Origin: a virus
Lineage: Duplodnaviria > Heunggongvirae > Uroviricota > Caudoviricetes
Direction: 5' to 3' (one strand)
Virus record (IMG/VR): IMGVR_UViG_3300040810_000833
Span: 64,001 to 96,055 of that record
Length of the DNA: 32,055 nt
Shown: positions 18,842 to 27,878 of the stretch, one piece after another
Position numbering within the stretch: position 1 is the stretch's first letter
Layout of the letters: each line of letters starts with the position of its first letter
Notes under the pieces: generated by a model
What the model was told of the DNA's origin: nothing
What the model saw: only the letters and a program-made list of their open reading frames with translations
Database searches by the model: none
Translations under genes and position numbers: made by a program

Positions 18842-19023
18842 TGTTTAGGTATGACTTATCAGACAAAAAACTAAGGGATCATGAAGATCGCGTTGTTGGG
18901 TCTGTAAAGAACAACAGATTTACTCAAGATGGCTGTCACGAACACTACAAAAACGGATTTGTCCCTAGAGAGCTTGAGCAAATCTCCGAGGCTCTACAGA
19001 GGGGTGGAGTGAATTACCTGTGA
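18838..19023 (+). CDS. Hypothetical protein
   Basis: 61 aa, overlaps both neighbours. Confidence 0.55.
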   Translation: MMFRYDLSDKKLRDHEDRVVGSVKNNRFTQDGCHEHYKNGFVPRELEQISEALQRGGVNYL

Positions 19024-19520
19024 AGAAGTGTCTCGTTGTTAACTCTGACATGACGCCACTCTCCATTATTCCGCTAAGGAGGTCGATGACCCTTGATCTT
19101 TACAGTGATAGGGTTACGGCATTATCTTATTATGCGGATTCATCTATACGCAGCGAGTCTATATCGCATAGAATTCCAGCCGTCATGATGTGCGTTAATT
19201 ACGTAAACGCGACAATGGTCAAGCGTCCAACAAAAAGAAACATAAGACTCAGAGATGACAACAAATGTGCTTATTGTGGAAGTTATTTAACCAAGTGTAG
19301 CTTCAGCATTGATCATGTTATTCCAAAGAGTAGATTCAATCAATCGTCTGCGGCAAACACATGGAAGAATCAGGTTGCCTGCTGCATCCCCTGCAATCTA
19401 AAAAAGGGGGACAGAACGCCGGAAGAGGCTGGGATGACACTACTAATAATCCCAAAAAAAGTTCACGGTATTGTCGTTGGGAGTGAAATTCCTAATGAAT
19501 GGATTCCGTATTTGGGGTAA
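19020..19520 (+). CDS. HNH endonuclease (McrA-like)
   Basis: RDDNKCAYCG, IDHVIPKSR, W.N.VACCIPCNLKKGDRTPEEAGM. Confidence 0.9.
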   Translation: MKKCLVVNSDMTPLSIIPLRRSMTLDLYSDRVTALSYYADSSIRSESISHRIPAVMMCVNYVNATMVKRPTKRNIRLRDDNKCAYCGSYLTKCSFSIDHVIPKSRFNQSSAANTWKNQVACCIPCNLKKGDRTPEEAGMTLLIIPKKVHGIVVGSEIPNEWIPYLG

Positions 19521-20490: not shown

Positions 20491-20511
20491 AAAAGGCCCC
20501 TTTCGGGGCCT
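20489..20511 (-). terminator. Terminator between convergent operons
   Basis: Minus strand AGGCCCC-GAAA-GGGGCCT followed by a T-run. Confidence 0.85.
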
Positions 20512-20515
20512 CGGA

Positions 20516-21748
20516 TCATGAGACTTCTTCTTGGTCGACGTAGTCGTCATTTTCCTTTGCGATTCCCTCAAGCACCTTGAATGTCCAACCTTTATGCTTG
20601 TAGGCTCTCCATTCAGACGAGTCAACCCTAACACAAACCCCCTCCCTGACATGTCTTGTGTCAATGGGGTCTTCGCCGTCAGAGAGAGAATCAACTCTTT
20701 CAATAAGTGACTCTTGATCTCCATCGTAAATGAATCTGTCGAGTTCTGGGACATGTTTAACATCCCATTGCTCACACTTCTTCTTTACTTGATCCCAAGT
20801 TAGGTCGATGGTAGTTCCGTTTGGTAGAACATACGCAATACGGTAAATATAGATGTCAAACTCTCCAGGATTGCAGCCATAAGAGTATGTCATCGTCTCT
20901 CCGTAACGCTTTGCCTCTTTTGATTTATTTGTAGAGTGAGATGGCATAATAGACTTCTGCCCCTCATAACCAACAACTTCAAAAAAGACCTGCATATGAT
21001 CTTCTAAGTACGGCATAATACGACGAGCCACGGCATCACGCCAAGACTCTGAGTAGTATCCACCACCCTTACCTTTTAACGTAACCCTTCGCGTGCCATT
21101 GTATTCCCTCATCCCTTGAGTTCTTGAAAACCCAATAAGGTTAAACAGCTTGTCATACCACCTTGATTCTGCTTCTTCGATGTTTTTCGCAACACGCTGA
21201 GAAGTTCCATGCATTTTCAATGTCACGACGAGCGTCTGCCCTGCTTTGAGATCTGCGGTAGATCTTGCTAGGTGATCAGTTTCTTTATGCTCTGGAAACA
21301 CTGTGTACTTTTTAGATGCTTGATTTCTTGACATTCTTTCTGTTTTTGGCGTAATGTACTTTTTAGCAATTTCTACGCCGCAAAACTCAGTAATTTTATC
21401 ACCTGGGTTTAATACTGAAGTATCTCCGAAAGAACCTAAGTAAGAAATCGGGCACCAAAATCCACAGGACTTAATTCCCCGAAATTTCTGTGCTCTAACC
21501 CTTCGGTTTTCTTCAAACATTCCACCGGCCTTAGATCCGTCTTCGTTCTTTCTACGAACTAGGTCGTTGACTGCCGCAAAATCATACCCAAGCTGGAGTT
21601 CGCACGGAAAGTATAAACCAAGTGCATTGTCTTCTGTGTCTTTGGATACGATCACCGTTTCTCCACAAACATTACCAACCGCCAAGGAGTGAACTTCTGG
21701 GTCGGGGTGTGGAGTGACTTTGACTCTTGAAACAATCGCTGCGTGCAT
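20516..21748 (-). CDS. ATP-dependent RNA ligase (DRB0094/Rnl2-like) with N-terminal OB-like domain
   Basis: TLKMHGTS (motif I), FFEVVG, FDIYIY, REGVCVR, AYKHK nucleotidyltransferase motifs; AGGAGG RBS. Confidence 0.85.
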   Translation of the reverse strand: MHAAIVSRVKVTPHPDPEVHSLAVGNVCGETVIVSKDTEDNALGLYFPCELQLGYDFAAVNDLVRRKNEDGSKAGGMFEENRRVRAQKFRGIKSCGFWCPISYLGSFGDTSVLNPGDKITEFCGVEIAKKYITPKTERMSRNQASKKYTVFPEHKETDHLARSTADLKAGQTLVVTLKMHGTSQRVAKNIEEAESRWYDKLFNLIGFSRTQGMREYNGTRRVTLKGKGGGYYSESWRDAVARRIMPYLEDHMQVFFEVVGYEGQKSIMPSHSTNKSKEAKRYGETMTYSYGCNPGEFDIYIYRIAYVLPNGTTIDLTWDQVKKKCEQWDVKHVPELDRFIYDGDQESLIERVDSLSDGEDPIDTRHVREGVCVRVDSSEWRAYKHKGWTFKVLEGIAKENDDYVDQEEVS

Positions 21749-21795
21749 TTTAGATTCCTCCTAGTTAAAAGACTGTTTGATCAATTCGCTCTGGC

Positions 21796-21823
21796 ATTCT
21801 ACAGCCAGTATCGTCATTGTCAA
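21796..21823 (-). promoter_or_regulatory. Sigma70-type promoter for RNA ligase gene
   Basis: TTGACA-N16-TAGAAT. Confidence 0.75.
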
Positions 21824-21848
21824 TGCGTTTCATCAAGAAAATTCAAAT

Positions 21849-21879
21849 AAAAAAGCCCGTTTGGATAACAAGGGCGGGC
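21849..21879 (-). terminator. Terminator ending the tmRNA coding piece
   Basis: GCCCG...CGGGC stem followed by T6. Confidence 0.75.
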
Positions 21880-22017
21880 AACCCCCCGTGACTACTCACG
21901 CAGCCATTGCGACATTTCTGCCTGCATTTATTTTTGATTAGATTTTTTAGCTGGCCCTTCTAATCACCCAGCACATGCAGTCGTTACCTACGTCACCTGT
22001 CAATTCCATTCACCCCC
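21855..22017 (-). ncRNA. ssrA: Two-piece tmRNA, coding piece
   Basis: 5' GGGGGTGAATGGAATTGACAGG (acceptor 5' strand plus D-loop); H-type pseudoknot GCTGG/CCAGC with GATTAGA/TCTAATC; AAAAATAAAT before the resume codon; tag ORF; stop-codon hairpin CGTGA-GTAG-TCACG. Confidence 0.9.
21896..21925 (-). other. tmRNA tag reading frame AGRNVAMAA*
   Basis: GCA GGC AGA AAT GTC GCA ATG GCT GCG TGA; hydrophobic AA C-terminus of ssrA degrons. Confidence 0.85.
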
Positions 22018-22556
22018 GTTGTTTTAGTAACTGCTCGTGCGAATTCTATAACATCTTCATCTGAAAATTTATTTCGAGCAAAGTTAAACATAACAGAAAC
22101 AAATCTAACATTGTCTACAGCATACCCTTTTGAATTATCAATTCTATCAAGACTTGCTGTTTTTAATCTTAATTTGTAGTTCTTAGATTGAGTTGGAAGT
22201 TCTAATGCCCAGCCAGTAAGAGGACAAATGCCTTTTTGAGAGTCCCAGATTTCTTTCAGAGATTCTAAAGTTATAGTAATTTCTTTACCTCTTCTGTGTA
22301 GTCTCCTAAAAGTTTCTCTAAATGGTGATAGCTCGTCAGCTCTGTTTCCAGCACGCTGAGATATGTCAAAATCACTTAGGTCTCTTATTCTTTTTAAATG
22401 ACTTAGTTGCTCAGGCTGTTTACCTGAACAAGACAGTCCACAATAAAACTTATCTTTACCCAACCTTATTCTTCTGTTATATTCTCCCTTCGATTTTTCA
22501 AATTCTTTGTTACAGGTTTCGCAGACGAGGGTTACTGTTTTCATCACAATCTCCAT
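21993..22556 (-). CDS. HNH-type (His-Me finger) endonuclease-like protein in the tmRNA intervening segment
   Basis: N-terminal CxxC...YCxxxC zinc motif; QKGICPLTG, SLDRIDNSKGY..DNV, N..RN motifs typical of phage homing-endonuclease-like proteins. Confidence 0.75.
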   Translation of the reverse strand: MEIVMKTVTLVCETCNKEFEKSKGEYNRRIRLGKDKFYCGLSCSGKQPEQLSHLKRIRDLSDFDISQRAGNRADELSPFRETFRRLHRRGKEITITLESLKEIWDSQKGICPLTGWALELPTQSKNYKLRLKTASLDRIDNSKGYAVDNVRFVSVMFNFARNKFSDEDVIEFARAVTKTTGVNGIDR

Positions 22557-22629
22557 TTAAGGTAATAGTAGTTTTATATCATACCATACACCAAAAACGA
22601 TGGAGAGCGTAAGAAAAAAAAATGGAGAG

Positions 22630-22706
22630 TGGAGGTGGGGGGCAACGATCCCCCGTCCAGTCTGATTTCAATAACAACGTCTACATGTTTATCCGGCTTA
22701 CGCCAG
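22630..22706 (-). ncRNA. ssrA: Two-piece tmRNA, acceptor piece
   Basis: CTGGC-GTAA-GCCGG hairpin, AAACATGTAG, then GGAC-GGGGG-ATCGTTG-CCCCC (T arm)-CACCTCC-A; pairs with GGGGGTG at 22017-22011 giving G3.U70 Ala identity; ACATGTA pairs with TGCATGT of the coding piece. Confidence 0.9.
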
Positions 22707-22709
22707 AAA

Positions 22710-22821
22710 AGGAGGGGCTGGACTCGAACCAGCATCAGGTTCCGACTTAGGAACGTGCCTTCCTCTTGGCACTTATTGGTATACTGCGTCCAGTATTGCC
22801 CGTCTTTATCATCACCCTCCC
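22710..22821 (-). ncRNA. Non-canonical tRNA-like RNA (acceptor + T arm + three hairpins)
   Basis: GGGAGGG/CCCTCCT acceptor, GCTGG-TTCGAGT-CCAGC T arm, hairpins ATACTG/CAGTAT, GTGCC/GGCAC (8-nt loop), GTTCC/GGAAC; no canonical D arm or anticodon loop. Confidence 0.65.
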
Positions 22822-22831
22822 CTAAAACTCT

Positions 22832-22885
22832 AACAAGTGGTGGTTCACTAAGAGGTTATCTTAGCCATTATGAACGTCGCTTGTT
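22832..22885. other. Long imperfect hairpin between tRNA-like RNAs
   Basis: AACAAGTGGTG/CGTCGCTTGTT, TTCA/TGAA, CTAAGA/TCTTAG. Confidence 0.55.
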
Positions 22886-22895
22886 TTTCATTAAT

Positions 22896-23027
22896 TGATG
22901 GCCGGTGGAGTCGAACCACCATATGCGGTATATCTACCTATTTGCTCTCCAAGATAAAAGGGAATCGAACCCTAACGCCCTAACCACTAGGAAAACGGAG
23001 TCGAACCGTCTACATTCCAACGCCATC
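22896..23027 (-). ncRNA. tRNA-like RNA with three T-arms
   Basis: GATGGC/GCCATC closing stem plus discriminator A; arms GACGG-TTCGACT-CCGTT, AGGG-TTCGATT-CCCT, GGTGG-TTCGACT-CCACC. Confidence 0.75.
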
Positions 23028-23030
23028 TAA

Positions 23031-23114
23031 TAGGAGAAGAGGGATTCGAACCCCCGAAGGCATAATGCCGCTAGATTTACAGTCTAGTCCTTTTGGCCGC
23101 TTAGGTATTCTCCT
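23031..23114 (-). tRNA. tRNA-Tyr(GTA)
   Basis: CTAGA-CT-GTA-AA-TCTAG anticodon arm, long variable arm, TTCGAAT T loop, AGGAGAA/TTCTCCT acceptor. Confidence 0.93.
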
Positions 23115-23119
23115 ATAAA

Positions 23120-23255
23120 AATCAGACAAGTCAAGGTTACGTTGTGTTTTTATCACCGGCAGTATTTCTACGTCTTTCCCTCATATATTGCTATATGTCC
23201 AGTGTTTATTTCACAATAACTACGGTCTTTAGCCCCTTGATACATTAACCTGATT
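23120..23255 (-). ncRNA. Candidate structured ncRNA rich in GNRA hairpins
   Basis: AATCAGG/TCTGATT and TCAAGG/CCTTGA closing stems; TTATT-GTGA-AATAA, CATATA-GCAA-TATATG, GTA-GAAA-TAC. Confidence 0.55.
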
Positions 23256-23261
23256 AAATAA

Positions 23262-23400
23262 CGCCGCATAATGGAATCGAACCATTTTCTCCCGGGCACC
23301 CCGGTTGTTTTAACACTATATCACATTTCGCGAAAATGTCAAGTGCGAATTCTCTAAATTTAGCTACGATCTAGAAAGCTCTCCATTAAACTAATGCGGC
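23262..23400 (-). ncRNA. tRNA-like RNA with a large insertion containing a promoter
   Basis: GCCGCAT/ATGCGGC acceptor, TAGTTTAATGG D-arm, AATGG-TTCGATT-CCATT T arm, 9-bp stem with 9-nt loop, then about 60 extra nt. Confidence 0.65.
23315..23342 (-). promoter_or_regulatory. Sigma70-type promoter inside the tRNA-like element
   Basis: TTGACA-N16-TATAGT, extended -10 (TGn), inverted repeat ACATTT-TCGCG-AAATGT. Confidence 0.7.
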
Positions 23401-23477
23401 AATCCTCACCTATTCGACGAACTCAAACCAGTTCTATTTGCTCATTATTCCATCCTTAGAATGTGTCACAAAACTGA

Positions 23478-23521
23478 GCCAGATGGACACTCAGCCAAAA
23501 GGTATTGAGCATCCATCTGAC
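23478..23521 (-). other. Long hairpin downstream of rsr
   Basis: GTCAGATGGA/TCCATCTGGC plus TGCTCA/TGAGTG, with G.U pairs in the minus orientation. Confidence 0.6.
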
Positions 23522-23544
23522 TAAAATCAAAGATTCGACTTTCT

Positions 23545-24915
23545 TCATTGGGCTTCTGCAATAAATCTCAGGAATTGATCCGACCATCCCGAAATTTCTG
23601 CATCCCATACACCCCTGTAATTAATTCCATTTTGGTGACAACTTACATCAATGATGTAGTTTTTCTTGCCAAATGGACTTGGGGCTTTATTGGTGAGGTC
23701 GCAGTCTTGGCTGTCGCTGAACACAATAACTGTGTCGGTATTCTTTTCAAGTGGTCTTAGGTGATCCATACACTGCCGTGTAAAAATACCCCCGTAGCCA
23801 GCAGCGTTCTTGTTTGCACGAATCTCTTTCATTAATCCAAAACCGCGAAGGTTAGAAACTTTAATTGTCCTGTGTGTAGTATAGCCTCCCGCTGTAATGT
23901 AAATAGAAACCCCTTCGCACATTTCTGCCGCCATCATAGCCATAGAAATTCCCACGTCAAGTCTTGTATGTTTAGATTTTACGGAAATAGGACAATTCAT
24001 ACTTCCAGACACATCAAGGACAAAAACTGTCTCCCCCTTAATTTTTGGCAGTTCTGATAAGCAACGGAACATTAAGCCTTCCAAGTCAGGCATAAAGTCC
24101 GGGGCAGCTTCTGCAGCCTTGATAAAATCAACGGGAAGCAATGCTGATGTAGAGCATTGACTGATAGCTTTTCGGATGTTGGCCTTAGATACTCCAACCT
24201 GCTGCATGTTTCGTAAATTCCTCAGAACCGCTAAGGCACCAAGGCTCCGACTAGAAATCATATCTTCCCAGATATTCTTTTTTTCCTCATCTGACTTGGC
24301 TGCTGAATAACGAACCTCCCAAGTGTCTGGAGAGGTCAGTGTGCCATTAGCTAATTCCTTAAATAACAGTGACTGCTCTTGGTCTTTTGGTTTTGGGTGT
24401 GTCAGGAACAGAATGTCACGTAGACGAATATCAGCATCTCTATTCCACTTTGAGAGTTGATATCTGTCAAAATTAACCATTGCATCAGCCATTCCAAGTC
24501 GCAGCTGTCGAGAGATAGGCGTTCTTCCTTCTCTCCAGTAAAGAGCGAGTAGTTCAGTCAGTTGATCTGGTCGTGTACATACCTGCCGCACAGTTTCACG
24601 AACGAACGGTGCGTGCGTTTTGTATCGACACATTTCACGCACAACGAGCAATGGAACATGTCGCAGCTTCTGATCTCGTCGTGCAGAGACCGCTAAATCA
24701 GCACAGAATTTACCACTAACTGTTGGAATTAACTTACAAATCTCTGAGGCGATTTCAACACCGTCTTGATATGCGTTATCTTCCCATAGCAAACAGGTAA
24801 GAACCATACGCTTCAGTTCGTTTTCGTTCGACTGATTCGCTGCACGCAGGCCTTTACCTCCAGCAAGTCTTGCTGTCTTCATTTGCGGTGTTTTTGTTCT
24901 TACGTTGGTTCTCAT
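23545..24915 (-). CDS. rsr: Ro60 / TROVE-domain RNA-binding protein
   Basis: ELKRMVLTCLLWED..Y, KLRHVP, RPDQLTELL, FDRYQLSKW, TWE, LGALAVLRNLRNM, and vWA MIDAS FVLDVSGSM...FSDSQD; AAGGAG RBS. Confidence 0.92.
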   Translation of the reverse strand: MRTNVRTKTPQMKTARLAGGKGLRAANQSNENELKRMVLTCLLWEDNAYQDGVEIASEICKLIPTVSGKFCADLAVSARRDQKLRHVPLLVVREMCRYKTHAPFVRETVRQVCTRPDQLTELLALYWREGRTPISRQLRLGMADAMVNFDRYQLSKWNRDADIRLRDILFLTHPKPKDQEQSLLFKELANGTLTSPDTWEVRYSAAKSDEEKKNIWEDMISSRSLGALAVLRNLRNMQQVGVSKANIRKAISQCSTSALLPVDFIKAAEAAPDFMPDLEGLMFRCLSELPKIKGETVFVLDVSGSMNCPISVKSKHTRLDVGISMAMMAAEMCEGVSIYITAGGYTTHRTIKVSNLRGFGLMKEIRANKNAAGYGGIFTRQCMDHLRPLEKNTDTVIVFSDSQDCDLTNKAPSPFGKKNYIIDVSCHQNGINYRGVWDAEISGWSDQFLRFIAEAQ

Positions 24916-24932
24916 TTAAATCTCCTTATGGC

Positions 24933-24967
24933 AAAAAAAAAGAATGCACGGCATACACCGTGCATTC
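24933..24967 (-). terminator. Rho-independent terminator between the tRNA/Y RNA block and rsr
   Basis: GAATGCACGG-TGTATG-CCGTGCATTC followed by T9. Confidence 0.9.
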
Positions 24968-24982
24968 GCAAGCGTTCAAAAG

Positions 24983-25054
24983 CTGGCCAGGTAGGGATCG
25001 AACCTACAGCCCCTCGGTTAACAGCCGAGTGCTCTACCATTGAGCTACAAGCCA
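24983..25054 (-). tRNA. tRNA-Asn(GTT)
   Basis: CTCGG-CT-GTT-AA-CCGAG, canonical D and T arms, G73. Confidence 0.93.
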
Positions 25055-25060
25055 AAATTC

Positions 25061-25133
25061 GAGGTAACAAGCGAATACAGGGTTTTTGGACAGATTTTTA
25101 GTTCTGTTGATGAAGCTGTATTCTACGACACTC
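25061..25133 (-). ncRNA. Y RNA-like gene 1 (short, no tRNA domain)
   Basis: GTGTCGTAGAATACAGCTTCATC...CTGTATTCGCTTGTTACC; same scaffold as 25214-25290 and 25372-25519. Confidence 0.75.
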
Positions 25134-25136
25134 AAT

Positions 25137-25209
25137 TGTAGGATAAGGGATTCGAACCCTTAACTTCTGCTTGGAAGGCAGGCGTTTTAGCCATTGAAAC
25201 TAATCCTAC
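25137..25209 (-). tRNA. tRNA-Gly(TCC)
   Basis: CCTGC-CT-TCC-AA-GCAGA, GTAGGAT/ATCCTAC acceptor; atypical A73. Confidence 0.88.
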
Positions 25210-25213
25210 GTTT

Positions 25214-25290
25214 CTTACCAGAAGGCAACATTCGATTACAGCTTTTTACCTATAAAACGATGAATCTGCAATCTACAGCACTTTAGTAAG
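25214..25290 (-). ncRNA. Y RNA-like gene 2 (short, diverged Ro-binding motif)
   Basis: GTGCTGTAGATTGCAGATTCATC...TAAAAAG-CTGTAATCGAATGTTGCC with outer CTTACTA/TGGTAAG stem. Confidence 0.7.
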
Positions 25291-25293
25291 AAT

Positions 25294-25364
25294 TGGGGAT
25301 ACGGGAGTCGAACCCGCTGTCTTCGGCTTATGAGGCCGCTATGTAAACCGTTTCACTCATCCCC
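25294..25364 (-). tRNA. tRNA with CAT anticodon (elongator Met or lysidine Ile2)
   Basis: GCGGC-CT-CAT-AA-GCCGA; paired G1-C72 and no three G-C anticodon pairs, so not initiator. Confidence 0.88.
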
Positions 25365-25371
25365 TACAATA

Positions 25372-25519
25372 AAAGAGAGGTAACATTCGGTGCGAGAATT
25401 TTTAGCGTGCTACCGTTACACTACCGACCCACCAGCACGACGGCGGTGGACCAGGCTGGATTCGAACCAGCACAGCTCGATTAACATTCGATGAATCTCA
25501 CATCTTCGACACTCTCTTT
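25372..25519 (-). ncRNA. yrlA: YrlA-type Y RNA with a permuted tRNA-like domain
   Basis: GTCGAAG Ro60-binding motif in the terminal stem; T arm GCTGG-TTCGAAT-CCAGC, loop-closed acceptor stem, D arm TA-GTGT-AACGGTA-GCAC in T-acceptor-D order; near rsr and rtcB. Confidence 0.85.
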
Positions 25520-25525
25520 GTCTCA

Positions 25526-25774
25526 TTATAGACAAACTGTTTTGTTTGTCAACTGCTTTTCTACGATTTTTTCATTTTCATAATTATTTCGCCGCCTATC
25601 AAATGAATCAGAAATGTACGATGTTGCAACGGCAAACTGAAAGGCGAATGCGATACAGGCTGCGTAAAACGCAGCCTCTGCCCAGTCGCTCTCTTGTTCC
25701 GAAAGCCAGTTAATCAAAAATGGCGACCCGACCAATACAGCATTGAATTGAAATGCATTAAATACTTTCATCAT
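25526..25774 (-). CDS. Hypothetical membrane protein
   Basis: 82 aa with hydrophobic segments, directly downstream of rtcB; GAGGA RBS. Confidence 0.55.
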   Translation of the reverse strand: MMKVFNAFQFNAVLVGSPFLINWLSEQESDWAEAAFYAACIAFAFQFAVATSYISDSFDRRRNNYENEKIVEKQLTNKTVCL

Positions 25775-25787
25775 TTTACTTTCCTCG

Positions 25788-26840
25788 CTATCCTTTAATG
25801 TTTAAAATTGGGCGAATATAATCCACCACATCAACAGAGTCCACCTGAAGTTCCATGACTTCAAAGATATTTTTATACGCCATCGGCGATTCGTCAAGGG
25901 TATCTTTAGAAATATTTGCACAAACGCCAATCATTTGCTGCTTAAATTCTTCAATAGATAGTTTTCTTTTTGCCTCTTTTCTTCCATAGACTCGACCAGC
26001 ACCGTGAGAAGACGAACATATCCAGTCTGGATTGCCCTTACCTCTAACAATAAATGATCCATCACGCATATTTCCAGGAATCACACCCATCATTCCGTCT
26101 TCGGCGTGCGTGGCCCCTTTTCTATGAATCCATCCTCCATCCTTTAGTTCTGCGTGATTGTGGTTGCGGTTTACGGTTTCGATTATATCTCCGTCAATAA
26201 CGCTTGCCGCAGCTTGAGCCATCGCGAGTCGCGAATCCAAGGCATATTGTAGGCAAAATGCAAGATCATTCATGTAGTCGTCATGATCCTGACTTCCAAC
26301 CTCTAGGTGTGCATTGCAGTTCTTAATGTACCAAGAGGCAACGGAATGACCAAAGCCCCTAGATCCGGAATGAACCACAACCCATAAATGATTGTCGCGA
26401 CCCCTACCGACTTCGACGAAATGATTACCCCCGCCAAGAGTCCCGAGTTGCTTCAAGAATTTTTCCTTTTGATCTCTCCAAACTCTAAGACCAGGTGTGT
26501 CTTCTGTCGGATCATCATATGTTCTAATTCTCTCGTGGCAATTAAAGCCTACTGGAATCAGTTTTTCAATATCTGACTTGATCTTTGCTGCTTTATTCTG
26601 ATCAATATCAGTCGTGCTGTCAAGCTTTAACGCAGTCATTCCACAGCCAATATCAAATCCAACCCATGCAGGAACAACGACACCATCAGTCTTTACAACA
26701 GCACCAATCGGCAAATCATACCCTTGGTGTGCATCCGGCATTAATGCCCCATCAATAGCGAAATCAAAAGACATGCAGTTATCCATCTGGGTAACGGCAC
26801 CTTCTTCAAGAATCTCTGCGTATACACGGTACTTTGACAT
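25788..26840 (-). CDS. rtcB: RtcB RNA ligase
   Basis: MPDAH.G, VGFDIGCG, TLGGGNHFVE, HSGSRG, HNH, HRKGAT, IPGNM, SSSHGAGR, DESPMAYK. Confidence 0.96.
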   Translation of the reverse strand: MSKYRVYAEILEEGAVTQMDNCMSFDFAIDGALMPDAHQGYDLPIGAVVKTDGVVVPAWVGFDIGCGMTALKLDSTTDIDQNKAAKIKSDIEKLIPVGFNCHERIRTYDDPTEDTPGLRVWRDQKEKFLKQLGTLGGGNHFVEVGRGRDNHLWVVVHSGSRGFGHSVASWYIKNCNAHLEVGSQDHDDYMNDLAFCLQYALDSRLAMAQAAASVIDGDIIETVNRNHNHAELKDGGWIHRKGATHAEDGMMGVIPGNMRDGSFIVRGKGNPDWICSSSHGAGRVYGRKEAKRKLSIEEFKQQMIGVCANISKDTLDESPMAYKNIFEVMELQVDSVDVVDYIRPILNIKG

Positions 26841-26884
26841 TGGTATTTCCTTTTACTGCTTTTGCCTTGCTTTGAGATCTGAAC

Positions 26885-26959
26885 TGACCCGTATGGGAAT
26901 CGAACCCATGAACTCCAGGTTGAAAGCCTAGTATTTCTACCAGCAGAAACTAACGGGCC
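26885..26959 (-). tRNA. tRNA-Glu(TTC)
   Basis: CTAGG-CT-TTC-AA-CCTGG, GGCCCGT/ACGGGTC acceptor. Confidence 0.92.
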
Positions 26960-26968
26960 TTTTGGTGT

Positions 26969-26996
26969 ATTGTATCAAGCGAAAATCAATAGTCAA
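26969..26996 (-). promoter_or_regulatory. Promoter for the tRNA-Glu/rtcB/Y RNA transcript
   Basis: TTGACT-N16-TACAAT with TGn extension. Confidence 0.75.
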
Positions 26997-27011
26997 TGGA
27001 AGTCAAACAAA

Positions 27012-27084
27012 TTCAGGTGACAGGACTCGAACCTGCAACTTCTTGGTCCCAAACCAAGCACTCTACCAATTGAGCTACACCCGA
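27012..27084 (-). tRNA. tRNA-Pro(TGG)
   Basis: CTTGG-TT-TGG-GA-CCAAG. Confidence 0.93.
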
Positions 27085-27085
27085 T

Positions 27086-27168
27086 TACCAAGGGAGGGAC
27101 TCGAACCCTCACGCCCTTTCAGGCACCAGATCCTAAATCTGGCGTGGCTGCCATTTCACCACCTTGGC
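27086..27168 (-). tRNA. tRNA-Leu(TAG)
   Basis: CCAGA-TT-TAG-GA-TCTGG, long variable arm. Confidence 0.93.
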
Positions 27169-27183
27169 AATTATGGAAGAAGT

Positions 27184-27389
27184 AATAGTGCAAACGCACA
27201 CCTTCGGTCTCGACTAAAAGACCGTTTTCTATTTCGTCTATCCTTGCGTACAGCAAACCCCTGATGCTGAATCAAGCCCCTATATAGCAAGTCATGATTC
27301 AGCCAGTGTAATGCTCAGCCGTTAGCCCAGCCGGGCATTGCTAATTAGCAAAAACAAAGTTCAAGTGCTCCTATCAAAACCTCCACTAT
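27184..27389 (-). ncRNA. Candidate ~205-nt structured ncRNA inside the tRNA array
   Basis: Perfect stems GCTGAATCA/TGATTCAGC and CGGTCT/AGACCG, plus AATGC/GCATT, TGCT/AGCA and terminal AATAGTG/CACTATT; no supported ORF. Confidence 0.5.
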
Positions 27390-27460
27390 TTACTCCGCAG
27401 GGACTCGAACCCCAACTAACAGGACCAAAACCTGTGGTGCTACCATTACACTACGGAGTA
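27390..27460 (-). tRNA. tRNA-Gln(TTG)
   Basis: ACAGG-TT-TTG-GT-CCTGT, TACTCCG/CGGAGTA acceptor. Confidence 0.92.
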
Positions 27461-27461
27461 G

Positions 27462-27532
27462 AGGCACCAGCCGGGATCGAACCAGCAACGACTGTTTACA
27501 AAACAGTAGTTATACCATTTAACTATGGTGCC
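27462..27532 (-). tRNA. tRNA-Thr(TGT)
   Basis: ACTGT-TT-TGT-AA-ACAGT, GGCACCA/TGGTGCC acceptor. Confidence 0.92.
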
Positions 27533-27535
27533 AAA

Positions 27536-27607
27536 CAACACCCCTGAGAATCGAACTCAGCCAGTTTGATTTGGAGTCAAACTCGCCACCTTGGAACATT
27601 GGGTGCT
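27536..27607 (-). tRNA. tRNA-Trp(CCA)
   Basis: TTTGA-CT-CCA-AA-TCAAA, G73. Confidence 0.9.
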
Positions 27608-27611
27608 ATAG

Positions 27612-27684
27612 TACTCGCGGTAGGACTCGAACCCACAATCGGCAGGGTAGAAACCTGCTGCATTATCCATTATGCTACGCGAGC
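27612..27684 (-). tRNA. tRNA-Arg(TCT)
   Basis: GCAGG-TT-TCT-AC-CCTGC. Confidence 0.92.
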
Positions 27685-27689
27685 GTAAG

Positions 27690-27762
27690 TAGGGATGGTG
27701 GGAATCGAACCCACGACCAATGCTTTATAAGAACACTACTCTTACCACTGAGCTACATCCCC
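27690..27762 (-). tRNA. tRNA-Ile(TAT)
   Basis: GTGTT-CT-TAT-AA-AGCAT, GGGGATG/CATCCCT acceptor, A73. Confidence 0.9.
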
Positions 27763-27850
27763 ATTGCCGTGATAAGTGCCCTGATAATTCCTAGCCCATT
27801 CACCTTTAATAATGGAACTCTTAGTAGAAACAGCATTGCCTCCTAGAATC

Positions 27851-27878
27851 ATTATACCTTATTGATTGCTTTCGTCAA
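27851..27878 (-). promoter_or_regulatory. Promoter heading the tRNA array
   Basis: TTGACG-N16-TATAAT, overlapping the 3' end of the upstream ORF. Confidence 0.8.

What the first reader, a model, noticed from the sequence alone, without database searches (positions are those of the whole stretch)
20516..27878. Phage RNA-repair and ribosome-rescue island: two ligase chemistries, Ro60, Y RNAs, tmRNA, tRNAs and tRNA mimics
Seen: in 7.3 kb on one strand, an ATP-dependent RNA ligase, tmRNA, four or more atypical structured RNAs, rsr, three Y-like RNAs, rtcB and 12 tRNAs. Established: RtcB joins 2',3'-cyclic-phosphate/3'-P ends to 5'-OH (the ends left by anticodon nucleases); Rnl2-type ligases join 3'-OH to 5'-P; rsr, Y RNA and rtcB are linked in the Salmonella rtc operon. 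Inference: an integrated counter-defence against host tRNA/mRNA-cleaving immunity, with repair, replacement, rescue and possibly decoy RNAs.
Basis: partly seen in the sequence, partly recalled or inferred. Interest (0 to 1): 0.8.

Follow-up and report, generated by a model that had tools for sequence, protein, structure and literature searches.

The report
Phage RNA-repair and ribosome-rescue gene cluster
An uncultured estuarine phage packs two RNA-joining enzymes, a Ro60 protein with three partner Y RNAs, a split tmRNA and 12 tRNAs into 7.3 kb; every part is real, but the cluster is a lineage-specific collection of known phage accessories, not a conserved single system.

Summary
Every listed component is present on the minus strand at the stated coordinates. 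Three points needed correcting or adding.

- **Ligase:** the ATP-dependent ligase is of the Rnl5 type (NgrRnl/DraRnl-like), not the Rnl2 type.
- **tmRNA:** it is a circularly permuted two-piece gene. Its 612-nt intervening segment holds an HNH nuclease gene under purifying selection. An 83%-identical copy in other phage contigs shows compensatory changes in P2 and in both stems of pseudoknot 1.
- **Y RNAs:** the three covary, alternate with tRNAs at gaps of 6 nt or less, and belong to a family found next to rsr in at least 18 other phage loci, always on the rsr strand.

Integration is weak. The region carries five σ70-like promoters. Among 50 rsr-bearing viral records, RtcB occurs in 3, an RNA_ligase-domain (PF09414) gene in 9, a standard tmRNA in 15, and all four together in none. 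A related phage has the same tmRNA–HNH unit without rtcB, rsr or the ligase.

The tRNA set matches the phage's favoured A-ending codons. No end-healing enzyme, SmpB or CCA-adding enzyme was found in the 96 kb held.

My best reading is an early-expressed set of modules that maintain translation RNAs. A counter-defence role is plausible but unproven, and nothing supports decoy RNAs. Earlier notes of this scan describe similar islands on other phage DNA.

The parts
27851..27878 (-). Promoter P1 (TTGACG-16-TATAAT) ahead of the first tRNA array
   Evidence: Consensus scan, 11 of 12 matches
27390..27762 (-). tRNA array: Ile(UAU), Arg(UCU), Trp(CCA), Thr(UGU), Gln(UUG)
   Evidence: ARAGORN. Rfam tRNA 57-71 bits, except Trp at 22.8 bits
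27170..27389 (-). 220-nt structured RNA of unknown kind between tRNA-Gln and tRNA-Leu
   Evidence: MFE -72.9 kcal/mol, z -3.84, 0 of 200 shuffles fold as well. No Rfam match and no homolog in the fetched loci. Absent in L077, where the Gln and Leu tRNA genes are 2 nt apart
27012..27169 (-). tRNA-Leu(UAG) and tRNA-Pro(UGG)
26885..26996 (-). Promoter P2 (26996-26969) and tRNA-Glu(UUC) (26885-26959)
25788..26840 (-). rtcB, 350 aa: ligase for 3'-P or 2',3'-cyclic-P ends with 5'-OH ends
   Evidence: Pfam RtcB E 5e-75. Metal-binding motifs and the GMP-histidine motif align to P. horikoshii RtcB. Nearest phage homologs are 48% identical
25526..25774 (-). 82-aa ORF of unknown function; its 3' end overlaps promoter P3
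   Evidence: No Pfam or PHROG match. Present in sister contigs L074 and L005
25525..25552 (-). Promoter P3, a perfect TTGACA-16-TATAAT; the expected start is at the first base of the Y1 stem
   Evidence: 12 of 12 matches. Invariant in L005
25372..25520 (-). Y1: YrlA-like Y RNA with GUCGAAG on the 5' strand of its stem and an internal T-arm, closed acceptor-like stem and D-arm-like hairpin
   Evidence: Fold. All substitutions in predicted stems keep the pair, including C-G to U-A. Weak Rfam YrlA match, 19.3 bits. Motif as defined in PMC4201824
25293..25365 (-). tRNA with anticodon CAU
   Evidence: Rfam tRNA 46.3 bits; sequence
25212..25290 (-). Y2: short Y-like RNA
   Evidence: Fold z -2.4; covariation with its paralogs; model R1 66.8 bits
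25137..25209 (-). tRNA-Gly(UCC)
25056..25134 (-). Y3: short Y-like RNA
   Evidence: Fold z -2.9; covariation; R1 82.6 bits
24942..25054 (-). tRNA-Asn(GUU) (24982-25054) and a strong intrinsic terminator (24942-24967)
23545..24915 (-). rsr (Ro60 ortholog), 456 aa: TROVE ring plus a vWA domain with a MIDAS motif
   Evidence: Pfam TROVE. 7951 homologs among the 8000 candidates scored. The DxSGS motif is invariant. The family profile matches phiLo Ro60 (PDB 9KOP), E 3e-28
23401..23544 (-). Hairpin-rich stretch downstream of rsr
   Evidence: z -3.47. 88% identical in L005, after which the two sequences diverge completely
23262..23400 (-). tRNA-like RNA with a 72-nt insert in the D-loop and no anticodon loop; the insert carries sigma-70-like promoter P4 (23342-23315)
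   Evidence: Rfam tRNA 35.2 bits, alignment; promoter 11 of 12 matches. Not conserved at this position in L005
23030..23115 (-). tRNA-Tyr(GUA)
22895..23027 (-). RNA with about 130 nt, one acceptor-like stem and three T-arm hairpins; ARAGORN calls part of it an aberrant tRNA-Pro
   Evidence: A 21-nt pattern from its 3' end had no match in IMG/VR
22706..22821 (-). 112-nt tRNA-like RNA with a 7-bp acceptor stem, a canonical T-arm and three inserted hairpins; it sits where a related phage has tRNA-Leu, directly before the tmRNA
   Evidence: Fold z -2.3; position compared with L077; no homology to tRNA-Leu
22630..22697 (-). tmRNA acceptor piece: 5' strands of P2, T-arm with the unusual loop AUCGUUG, acceptor 3' strand and discriminator A (22630); CCA is not encoded
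   Evidence: Rfam alignment; invariant in L077; G3-U70 pair present
22018..22629 (-). tmRNA intervening segment, 612 nt. It holds most of the 187-aa HNH endonuclease ORF (21993-22556), whose last 25 nt lie inside the coding piece
   Evidence: phrog_3322 E 8e-23. The ORF is open in L075-L077 with an in-frame 6-nt indel, 83% aa identity and dN/dS 0.29
21850..22017 (-). tmRNA coding piece: acceptor 5' strand, 3' strands of P2, pseudoknot 1, resume codon GCA (21925-21923), tag AGRNVAMAA and stop (21896-21898), terminator hairpin
   Evidence: Both stems of pseudoknot 1 are rebuilt by compensatory changes in L077, whose tag is AEPSFALAA
21796..21823 (-). Promoter P5 ahead of the ATP-dependent ligase gene
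   Evidence: 11 of 12 matches
20493..21748 (-). ATP-dependent RNA ligase, 410 aa, Rnl5-like (N-terminal OB-like domain plus nucleotidyltransferase domain), followed by a terminator at 20493-20512
   Evidence: Pfam RNA_ligase. K178 and the other motif residues are invariant. The only PDB relative by profile is NgrRnl. AlphaFold2 pLDDT 90. Foldseek: NgrRnl E 1e-18, TM 0.75; T4 Rnl2 E 2e-7 over the catalytic domain only. Terminator

Best explanation
The stretch is the early-transcribed tRNA and non-coding-RNA region of an uncultured estuarine phage. Five separately promoted modules that service the RNAs of translation have accumulated in it.

1. **tRNAs.** Twelve tRNAs supply the A-ending codons that the phage prefers.
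2. **RtcB.** It reseals RNAs cut to 2',3'-cyclic-phosphate and 5'-OH ends.
3. **Y RNA and tRNA array.** One transcript from a perfect sigma-70 promoter carries Y1, tRNA, Y2, tRNA, Y3, tRNA. Host RNase P and 3'-end tRNA processing would cut it into three Y RNAs and three tRNAs. The Y RNAs would load phage Ro60, which binds misfolded or broken structured RNAs and, by analogy with bacterial and phiLo Ro60, hands them to host PNPase.
4. **Two-piece tmRNA.** With host SmpB it would free ribosomes stalled on truncated mRNAs and tag the products (AGRNVAMAA).
5. **Rnl5-like ligase.** It seals 3'-OH/5'-P nicks in duplex RNA.

Together these would keep translation running when RNAs are cut, most plausibly by host RNase-type defences.

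**Shown:** gene identities, catalytic motifs, RNA structures with covariation, promoter and terminator consensus matches, and conservation of the whole region within the phage population.

**Inferred:** all activities, the processing scheme, the use of host partners (SmpB, PNPase, CCA-adding enzyme), and the counter-defence purpose. The modules are co-located but are not a conserved operon.
For: - **Identities.** RtcB, Rnl5-like ligase, Ro60.
- **tmRNA.** Rfam matches. The 83%-identical relative keeps the T-arm and acceptor stem. It has a compensatory G-C to A-U change in P2 across the intervening segment, compensatory changes in both stems of pseudoknot 1, and a 9-codon tag ending in LAA where this one ends in MAA.
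- **Y RNAs.**
  - On the alignment, 98.4% of cells pair, against 30-45% when the partners are slid, and 6 pairs change on both sides.
  - Y1 carries the GNCGAAN0-1G motif of PMC4201824.
  - Model R1 finds 60 of 60 matches on the rsr strand, in at least 18 other rsr loci, often abutting tRNAs.
- **Array layout.** Promoter P3 matches 12 of 12, a terminator follows, and gaps between Y RNAs and tRNAs are 6 nt or less.
- **Conservation.**
  - Sister contigs keep the array: L074 at 98.9% identity and L005 at 92%.
  - The whole region recurs in metagenomes of at least 13 studies. A roughly 5%-divergent seawater strain has cover in all 30 bins.
- **Precedents.** Phage phiLo Ro60 binds two upstream Y-like RNAs and host PNPase (PMC12135203). 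Salmonella links rsr, Y RNAs and rtcB in an operon induced by damaged tRNAs (PMC7790460). Large phages combine RtcB, ATP-dependent ligases and TROVE proteins (PMC7824862).
- **Related loci.** RtcB at 65% identity also sits inside a tRNA array in a related marine phage. A standard tmRNA occurs in 15 of 50 rsr-bearing viral records, against 2.3% of phage genomes in PMC9004378.
Against: - No activity is shown.
- The parts are not co-inherited.
  - RtcB is in 3 of 50 rsr-bearing records, a PF09414 ligase in 9, and all four parts in none.
  - L077 has the tmRNA-HNH unit without the three proteins.
- Five promoters and a strong terminator between the Y array and rsr argue against one operon.
- No kinase/phosphatase, RtcA, archease, SmpB or CCA-adding enzyme was found in the 96 kb held. 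The record is only 63% complete, so this is weak.
- The tRNA set is explained by codon usage alone.
- The tmRNA T-loop is non-canonical. Both Rfam scores are below the gathering threshold, and ARAGORN rejects the gene.
- The host is unknown.
Confidence: 0.55

Rival explanations
1. The cluster is an accretion zone with no shared function. It is the phage's hypervariable tRNA region, where unrelated accessory genes are gained and lost one at a time, helped by homing endonucleases. Each gives a small separate benefit, mainly codon supply, and co-location says nothing about joint action.
For: - The parts are unlinked in relatives.
- There are five promoters.
- Two HNH genes lie in or beside the region.
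- The tmRNA-HNH unit is 83% identical at the DNA level, while flanking proteins are only 31-48% identical, which suggests lateral exchange.
- L005 diverges completely 135 nt after rsr.
- The tRNAs match the preferred codons.
- Earlier scan note e1-1607480 reached the same view on other DNA (unchecked).
Against: - All five modules act on the RNAs of translation, which is unlikely for random cargo.
- rsr and tmRNA co-occur far above the phage background (against PMC9004378).
- RtcB sits in tRNA arrays repeatedly.
- The whole arrangement is kept across strains and habitats.
Confidence: 0.3
2. The cluster serves host takeover, not repair. Ro60 and the Y RNAs redirect host PNPase to degrade host structured RNAs for nucleotides or to blunt CRISPR RNA maturation. 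The tmRNA tags host proteins for proteolysis. The ligases process the phage's own RNAs.
For: phiLo Ro60 and its Y-like RNAs assemble with host PNPase, and the authors propose PNPase hijacking (PMC12135203). Tagging of host proteins was proposed for a phage two-piece tmRNA (PMC9004378). The sigma-70-type promoters imply early expression.
Against: No nuclease or host-shutoff gene lies in the region. RtcB and a nick-sealing ligase have no obvious role in degradation. tmRNA acts only on stalled ribosomes.
Confidence: 0.1
3. The atypical tRNA-like RNAs are decoys that soak up host anticodon nucleases or tRNA-sensing defence proteins.
For: They keep acceptor and T-arm features that tRNA-binding proteins recognise. 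Contigs from RNA libraries cover them.
Against: - None keeps an anticodon loop, which is the usual nuclease target.
- None has a detectable relative.
- One element contains a promoter and is missing at the same site in the sister contig.
- The 112-nt element occupies the slot of a real tRNA before the tmRNA in L077, which fits a role as a processing signal.
Confidence: 0.07

Closest known systems
Salmonella rsr-yrlBA-rtcBA RNA repair operon (PMC7790460; Y RNAs in PMC4201824)
   Same: Ro60, one tRNA-mimic Y RNA plus shorter Y RNAs, and RtcB lie side by side on one strand. The GNCGAAN0-1G motif is on the Y RNA stem.
   Different: No RtcA and no RtcR/sigma-54 control. The units have separate sigma-70-like promoters. 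The order is rtcB, then Y RNAs, then rsr. tRNAs are interleaved with the Y RNAs. It is phage-borne. In phage relatives rsr and rtcB are rarely together (3 of 50 records).
Thermus phage phiLo Ro60 with Yrl1 and Yrl2 (PMC12135203; PDB 9KOP, 9L5Y)
   Same: A phage Ro60 with Y-like RNAs encoded just upstream that carry a CGAA motif. It is the only solved structure matched by the family profile.
   Different: Here there are three Y RNAs in strict alternation with tRNAs, and one has a tRNA-like domain. RtcB, a second ligase and a tmRNA lie nearby.
RNA-repair and tRNA suites of jumbo phages (Iyer et al. 2021, PMC7824862)
   Same: Combinations of RtcB, ATP-dependent RNA ligases, a TROVE protein and tRNA arrays, read there as a counter to RNase effectors.
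   Different: This record is 96 kb at an estimated 63% completeness, so it is probably not a jumbo phage. The ligase is Rnl5-like, not Rnl1 or Rnl2. No kinase or phosphoesterase was found. A two-piece tmRNA is included, and everything sits in 7.3 kb.
Two-piece (permuted) tmRNAs of bacteria and marine phages (PMC9004378; database paper PMC11915505)
   Same: The order is acceptor piece, intervening segment, coding piece. P2 pairing holds the two pieces together. G3-U70, a GCA resume codon and an (L/M)AA tag end are present.
   Different: The intervening segment is 612 nt and encodes a conserved HNH nuclease whose ORF runs 25 nt into the coding piece. The database paper reports homing endonuclease genes only in group I introns of tmRNA genes, and reports a tRNA or a repeat element in intervening segments. 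Here only pseudoknot 1 is present, and the T-loop is AUCGUUG.
Naegleria gruberi and Deinococcus radiodurans RNA ligases (Rnl5 family; PDB 5COT)
   Same: An N-terminal OB-like domain followed by the nucleotidyltransferase domain, with matching ligase motifs and a full-length fold match.
   Different: About 17% identity and roughly 70 residues longer. The score is below the NCBIfam DraRnl cut-off (24.7 against 151 bits). It belongs to a phage clade of its own (phrog_968), found in 364 phage records, mostly actinophages.
Phage T4 Pnkp and Rnl1 repair of tRNA-Lys cut by PrrC (from my own knowledge)
   Different: No end-healing enzyme and no tRNA-Lys here. RtcB needs no healing step, and the ATP-dependent ligase is of a different family.
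Homing endonucleases in phage tRNA regions (T4 SegB, PMC2330249 and PMC13096335)
   Same: A free-standing endonuclease gene embedded among phage tRNA genes. Such genes favour inheritance of the neighbouring RNA genes.
   Different: It is HNH, not GIY-YIG, and is nested inside a tmRNA gene. Cleavage and homing are untested.

Membership tests
Rnl5 (DraRnl/NgrRnl) ATP-dependent RNA ligases | N-terminal OB-like domain preceding the nucleotidyltransferase domain | tested here: met
   The profile matches NgrRnl residues 15-181. Foldseek gives full-length matches to NgrRnl, E 1e-18, TM 0.75 normalised to the target.
Rnl5 (DraRnl/NgrRnl) ATP-dependent RNA ligases | Ligase motifs, including the motif I lysine | tested here: met
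   K178, E257, E369/G370, K384 and K386 are invariant in 30 homologs.
Rnl5 (DraRnl/NgrRnl) ATP-dependent RNA ligases | Score above the curated family cut-off (TIGR02306) | tested here: not met
   24.7 bits against a cut-off of 151. It is a distant relative, best called Rnl5-like.
Rnl5 (DraRnl/NgrRnl) ATP-dependent RNA ligases | Seals 3'-OH/5'-P nicks in duplex RNA | not testable with these tools
   Needs a biochemical assay.
Rnl2 (T4 Rnl2 type) | Nucleotidyltransferase domain followed by the Rnl2 C-terminal domain | tested here: not met
   The catalytic domain is C-terminal (residues 172-379). T4 Rnl2 aligns over the catalytic domain only, E about 2e-7 and TM 0.33-0.36.
RtcB | Pfam RtcB above cut-off, with metal ligands and the GMP-accepting histidine | tested here: met
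   253.7 bits. The DxHxG, CG, GNH, HSGSRG and SHGAGR motifs align to P. horikoshii RtcB.
Ro60/Rsr | TROVE (HEAT-repeat ring) plus a vWA domain with a MIDAS motif | tested here: met
   Pfam TROVE 56 bits. The DxSGS motif is invariant. The profile matches phiLo Ro60 over residues 22-459.
Bacterial and phage Y RNA (YrlA/YrlB) | Encoded within 4 kb of rsr on the same strand | tested here: met
   The RNAs lie 140-600 nt upstream of rsr. All 60 matches to model R1 are on the rsr strand.
Bacterial and phage Y RNA (YrlA/YrlB) | GNCGAAN0-1G on the 5' strand of the terminal stem | tested here: inconclusive
   Y1 has GUCGAAG, an exact match. Y3 has GUCGUAG and Y2 has GCUGUAG, each differing from the motif.
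Bacterial and phage Y RNA (YrlA/YrlB) | Terminal stem supported by covariation | tested here: met
   Four of the 8 pairs in the upper stem and 1 of 6 in the lower stem change on both sides.
Bacterial and phage Y RNA (YrlA/YrlB) | tRNA-like domain (T-arm, closed acceptor stem, D-arm) in at least one Y RNA | tested here: met
   Y1 fold. Substitutions in these stems keep the pairs.
Bacterial and phage Y RNA (YrlA/YrlB) | Rfam YrlA gathering score | tested here: not met
   19.3 bits against 69. A relative in L003 reaches 41.3 bits.
Bacterial and phage Y RNA (YrlA/YrlB) | Binds Ro60 | not testable with these tools
   Needs a gel-shift assay or an immunoprecipitation.
Two-piece (permuted) tmRNA | Acceptor stem with G3-U70, T-arm and discriminator A | tested here: met
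   The T-loop is non-canonical but invariant in the relative.
Two-piece (permuted) tmRNA | P2 pairing between the two pieces | tested here: met
   P2 pairs hold except one G-G position, with one G-C to A-U change and two changes to G-U wobble pairs between the window and L077.
Two-piece (permuted) tmRNA | Pseudoknot 1, resume codon and tag reading frame with a stop | tested here: met
   Both pseudoknot stems form in both phages with different sequences. The tags are AGRNVAMAA and AEPSFALAA.
Two-piece (permuted) tmRNA | Rfam gathering score or an ARAGORN call | tested here: not met
   29.6 bits against 47, with a 612-nt insert. ARAGORN finds nothing, even with the insert shortened.
Two-piece (permuted) tmRNA | SmpB partner available; alanine charging | not testable with these tools
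   No SmpB in the 96 kb held. A host SmpB is assumed.
rsr-yrl-rtcBA type RNA repair operon | rsr and rtcB co-inherited, with RtcA and an RtcR regulator | tested here: not met
   No RtcA. RtcB is present in 3 of 50 rsr-bearing viral records. The units have separate promoters.

The most novel reading that the evidence does not exclude
The five modules work as one early-expressed counter-measure that lets the phage survive several RNase-based host defences at once. Breaks of both end chemistries are resealed. Unrepairable RNAs are triaged by a Ro60-Y RNA particle released from a tRNA-punctuated transcript. Ribosomes stalled on cut mRNAs are rescued by the phage's own tmRNA.

In addition, the tmRNA-HNH unit would be a homing cassette that spreads ribosome rescue between phages. 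Its nuclease output would be limited because tmRNA maturation cuts the nuclease mRNA before its stop codon.
Probability: 0.2. Interest if true: 0.8.

Novelty: new variant of a known kind. Interest (0 to 1): 0.5.

Why it matters
Phage toolkits that repair RNA and supply tRNAs are already described, so the cluster as a class is not new.

This example is useful because it is compact, sits in a widespread estuarine phage, and brings together parts that are rarely combined. None of 50 other rsr-bearing viral records has all four.

It also has three features that can be tested directly:

- a Y RNA array whose members are delimited by tRNAs, an arrangement shared by related phage loci;
- an Rnl5-like ligase paired with RtcB but with no end-healing enzyme detected;
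- a two-piece tmRNA whose intervening segment carries a conserved HNH nuclease gene.

If the modules cooperate, the cluster would be a small model for how a virus protects the translation machinery from RNA-cutting immunity.

Tried and rejected
- **No close DNA relative in isolate phages.** Megablast of the region against phage records found nothing. Sensitive blastn of 21850-23420 found only tRNA-sized matches. A single-protein IMG/VR search with Rsr found nothing.
- **ARAGORN and the tmRNA.** It did not call the tmRNA on the native sequence, nor on four in-silico versions with a shortened intervening segment. The tmRNA call therefore rests on Infernal and on comparative evidence.
- **Rfam YrlA.** The best YrlA match (27026-27133) overlaps tRNA-Pro and tRNA-Leu and is a cross-hit.
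- **Atypical RNAs.**
  - blastn against all fetched loci matched only the post-rsr hairpins.
  - The pattern for the three-T-arm RNA had no match.
  - The pattern for the 112-nt RNA hit unrelated tRNA-like elements in other phages.
  - An alignment to tRNA-Leu and tRNA-Tyr showed no homology.
  - Their function stays open.
- **RNA-library contigs.**
  - Contigs from three metatranscriptome studies cover most genes at or near 100% identity.
  - Contigs cannot show transcription, strand or ends, and no silent control stretch was laid. I therefore do not count this as proof of expression.
  - The end of one contig at 22017 and the joint 25057>25145 were not interpreted.
- **Missing partner genes.** No SmpB, archease, AAA_33 kinase, CCA-adding enzyme, RtcA or metallophosphoesterase was found. 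The record is 63% complete, so this does not show the phage lacks them.
- **Ligase neighbours.** The contigs of its nearest relatives are too short to inform linkage.

Full report
**Context.** The window is the last 32 kb of a 96-kb IMG/VR virus record estimated to be 63% complete. GC content is about 42%.
- The phage is far from any isolate. Its structural genes have no PHROG match. Its DnaE-type polymerase is split into two ORFs and is under 30% identical to known phage polymerases.
- Near-identical DNA occurs in estuary, marsh, aquatic, freshwater and seawater metagenomes of at least 13 studies.
- The genes flanking the region are unrelated to RNA: glycosyltransferases, a PAP2 protein, an HNH endonuclease and a DenV-like glycosylase.
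- All tRNA genes of the 96 kb lie inside the region.

**Proteins.**
- *ATP-dependent ligase (20516-21748).*
  - It matches Pfam RNA_ligase and phrog_968.
  - A profile of 30 homologs, with the motif I lysine K178 and the other motif residues invariant, matches one solved protein only, the Naegleria nick-sealing ligase NgrRnl.
  - An AlphaFold2 model (pLDDT 90) matches NgrRnl over its full length (E 1e-18, TM 0.75). T4 Rnl2 aligns only over the catalytic domain (E about 2e-7).
  - The family is large: 1839 clusters and 364 phage records, mostly actinophages.
- *RtcB (25788-26840).* The match is clear (253.7 bits) and the metal-binding and GMP-histidine motifs are kept.
- *Rsr (23545-24915).* It has the TROVE domain and an invariant MIDAS motif. 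Its family profile matches the Ro60 of Thermus phage phiLo over the full length.

**tmRNA.** ARAGORN and Rfam at gathering threshold report none.
- *Rfam at relaxed threshold.* The tmRNA_permuted model aligns end to end across 21896-22688 with a 612-nt insert. The standard model hits both halves as truncated matches.
- *Gene order.* In transcription order the gene runs: acceptor piece (to discriminator A at 22630), intervening segment (22629-22018), coding piece (from G1 at 22017).
- *A close copy.* Three IMG/VR contigs carry an 83%-identical copy of the whole unit.
  - The T-arm, including its unusual loop, and the acceptor stem with G3-U70 are invariant.
  - P2 has a G-C to A-U change whose two sides lie 612 nt apart.
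  - Both stems of pseudoknot 1 are rebuilt with different sequences.
  - The tags differ (AGRNVAMAA and AEPSFALAA) but share length, the GCA resume codon and an (M/L)AA end.
  - This is strong evidence for a functional two-piece tmRNA.
- *The nested nuclease gene.* The intervening segment holds a 187-aa HNH endonuclease ORF. The ORF is open in both lineages, with an in-frame indel and dN/dS 0.29.
- *Possible lateral exchange.* The flanking proteins of the two phages are only 31-48% identical. The unit therefore looks laterally exchanged.
- *Literature.* Two-piece tmRNAs are known in phages (PMC9004378). The 2025 database paper reports homing endonuclease genes only within group I introns of tmRNA genes (PMC11915505).

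**Y RNAs.** Between rtcB and rsr the order is: a perfect sigma-70 promoter, Y1, tRNA(CAU), Y2, tRNA-Gly, Y3, tRNA-Asn, a strong terminator. Gaps are 6 nt or less.
- Y1 folds into a terminal stem that carries GUCGAAG, the GNCGAAN0-1G motif of PMC4201824, plus a T-arm, a closed acceptor-like stem and a D-arm-like hairpin.
- On an alignment of the three paralogs from the window and two sister contigs, 98.4% of cells pair, against 30-45% when the partners are slid. Six pairs change on both sides.
- A covariance model built only from these sequences finds matches in at least 18 other rsr loci. All 60 matches are on the rsr strand. In the nearest clade they directly abut tRNAs.
- The Y RNA and tRNA alternation is therefore a conserved design. 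It implies that tRNA processing enzymes release the Y RNAs.

**Atypical RNAs.** Four further elements fold better than shuffled controls or resemble tRNAs. None has a detectable relative.
- One contains a promoter and is missing at the same place in the sister contig L005.
- The 112-nt element sits where L077 has tRNA-Leu, directly before the tmRNA. That fits a role as a processing signal.
- I see no evidence for decoys.

**Linkage.**
- *Nearest Rsr relatives (61-68% identity).* They lie in tRNA arrays of T4-like contigs without rtcB.
- *Local census.* Across 65 rsr loci, within 10 kb, RtcB occurs in 2, this ligase in 1, a tmRNA called by ARAGORN in 9, and tRNAs in 43.
- *Whole-record census of 50 rsr-bearing viral records.*
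  - RtcB is in 3 records, or 1 of the 26 that are near-complete.
  - A PF09414 ligase is in 9 records.
  - A standard tmRNA above the gathering score is in 15 records.
  - A permuted tmRNA is in none, and all four parts together are in none.
- *RtcB relatives.* At 65% identity RtcB sits in the tRNA array of a related marine phage without rsr. At 62% identity it is on a bacterial chromosome.
- *Within this phage's population.* The full arrangement is kept. L074 is 98.9% identical. L005 is 92% identical across the Y array and rsr. A seawater strain about 5% divergent has cover in all 30 bins.

**Other tests.**
- The phage's favoured codons are the ones its tRNAs read: RSCU is 2.60 for AGA, 1.87 for CCA and 1.55 for ACA.
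- No SmpB, archease, kinase, RtcA, metallophosphoesterase or CCA-adding enzyme was found in the 96 kb. The tRNA and tmRNA genes do not encode CCA, so host factors are needed.

**Reading.**
- The parts are what they were said to be, and all of them service the RNAs of translation.
- They are separately promoted, and in relatives they are separately inherited.
- My best explanation is a lineage-specific assembly of maintenance modules for translation RNAs. It is most plausibly useful against RNase-type host defences, as already proposed for large phages (PMC7824862), for phiLo Ro60 (PMC12135203) and for the Salmonella operon (PMC7790460).
- Earlier notes of this scan describe comparable islands on other phage DNA. 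The class is therefore known, and this is an unusually compact variant.
- The HNH-bearing two-piece tmRNA and the tRNA-punctuated Y RNA array are its most original parts.

Noticed in passing
window 21845-22697 against L075, L076 and L077: The tmRNA-HNH unit is 83% identical at the DNA level between two phages whose flanking proteins are only 31-48% identical. This suggests the unit moves laterally, perhaps by homing.
   Followed up: partly
window 21993-22017: The last 25 nt of the HNH ORF, including its stop codon, lie inside the mature tmRNA coding piece. RNase P cleavage at G1 would therefore leave the nuclease mRNA without a stop codon.
   Followed up: no
window 23315-23342: A near-consensus sigma-70 promoter with an extended -10 element lies inside the 72-nt D-loop insert of a tRNA-like element. 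It may drive the transcript that runs from tRNA-Tyr to the tmRNA.
   Followed up: no
L003 11545-12726; L072 3415-4647; L073 3639-4871: DUF1501 (alkaline-phosphatase-like) genes sit just downstream of rsr or rtcB in phage relatives. They could be an unrecognised RNA-end phosphoesterase. None is present in this window.
   Followed up: no
50 rsr-bearing IMG/VR records (G001-G050): A standard tmRNA is present in 15 of 50 rsr-bearing viral records, often directly upstream of rsr. One published census found tmRNA in 2.3% of phage genomes. This comparison is not corrected for lineage or genome size.
   Followed up: partly
G000 contig positions 51332-55390 (L070 7333-11391): The DnaE-type DNA polymerase is split into two ORFs of 605 and 520 aa with a gap of about 680 nt. 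An earlier follow-up of this scan already examined it.
   Followed up: no
window 23074-23078 (tRNA-Tyr): Strain variants in a seawater DNA run and an aquatic RNA-library run carry about 7 extra bases inside tRNA-Tyr. The exact placement is uncertain because only differences from contigs were available.
   Followed up: no
L081 1-150: An unrelated viral contig has a promoter followed by a T-arm, an acceptor 3' strand, an 8-nt spacer, then an acceptor 5' strand and a D-arm. This is a permuted tRNA-like or YrlA-like RNA.
   Followed up: no
window 19020-19520 (+): A second HNH endonuclease gene lies just outside the region. Its homolog (48% identity) sits downstream of the tmRNA in L077, on the same strand as the tmRNA there but on the opposite strand here. 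This indicates a rearrangement at the border of the region.
   Followed up: partly
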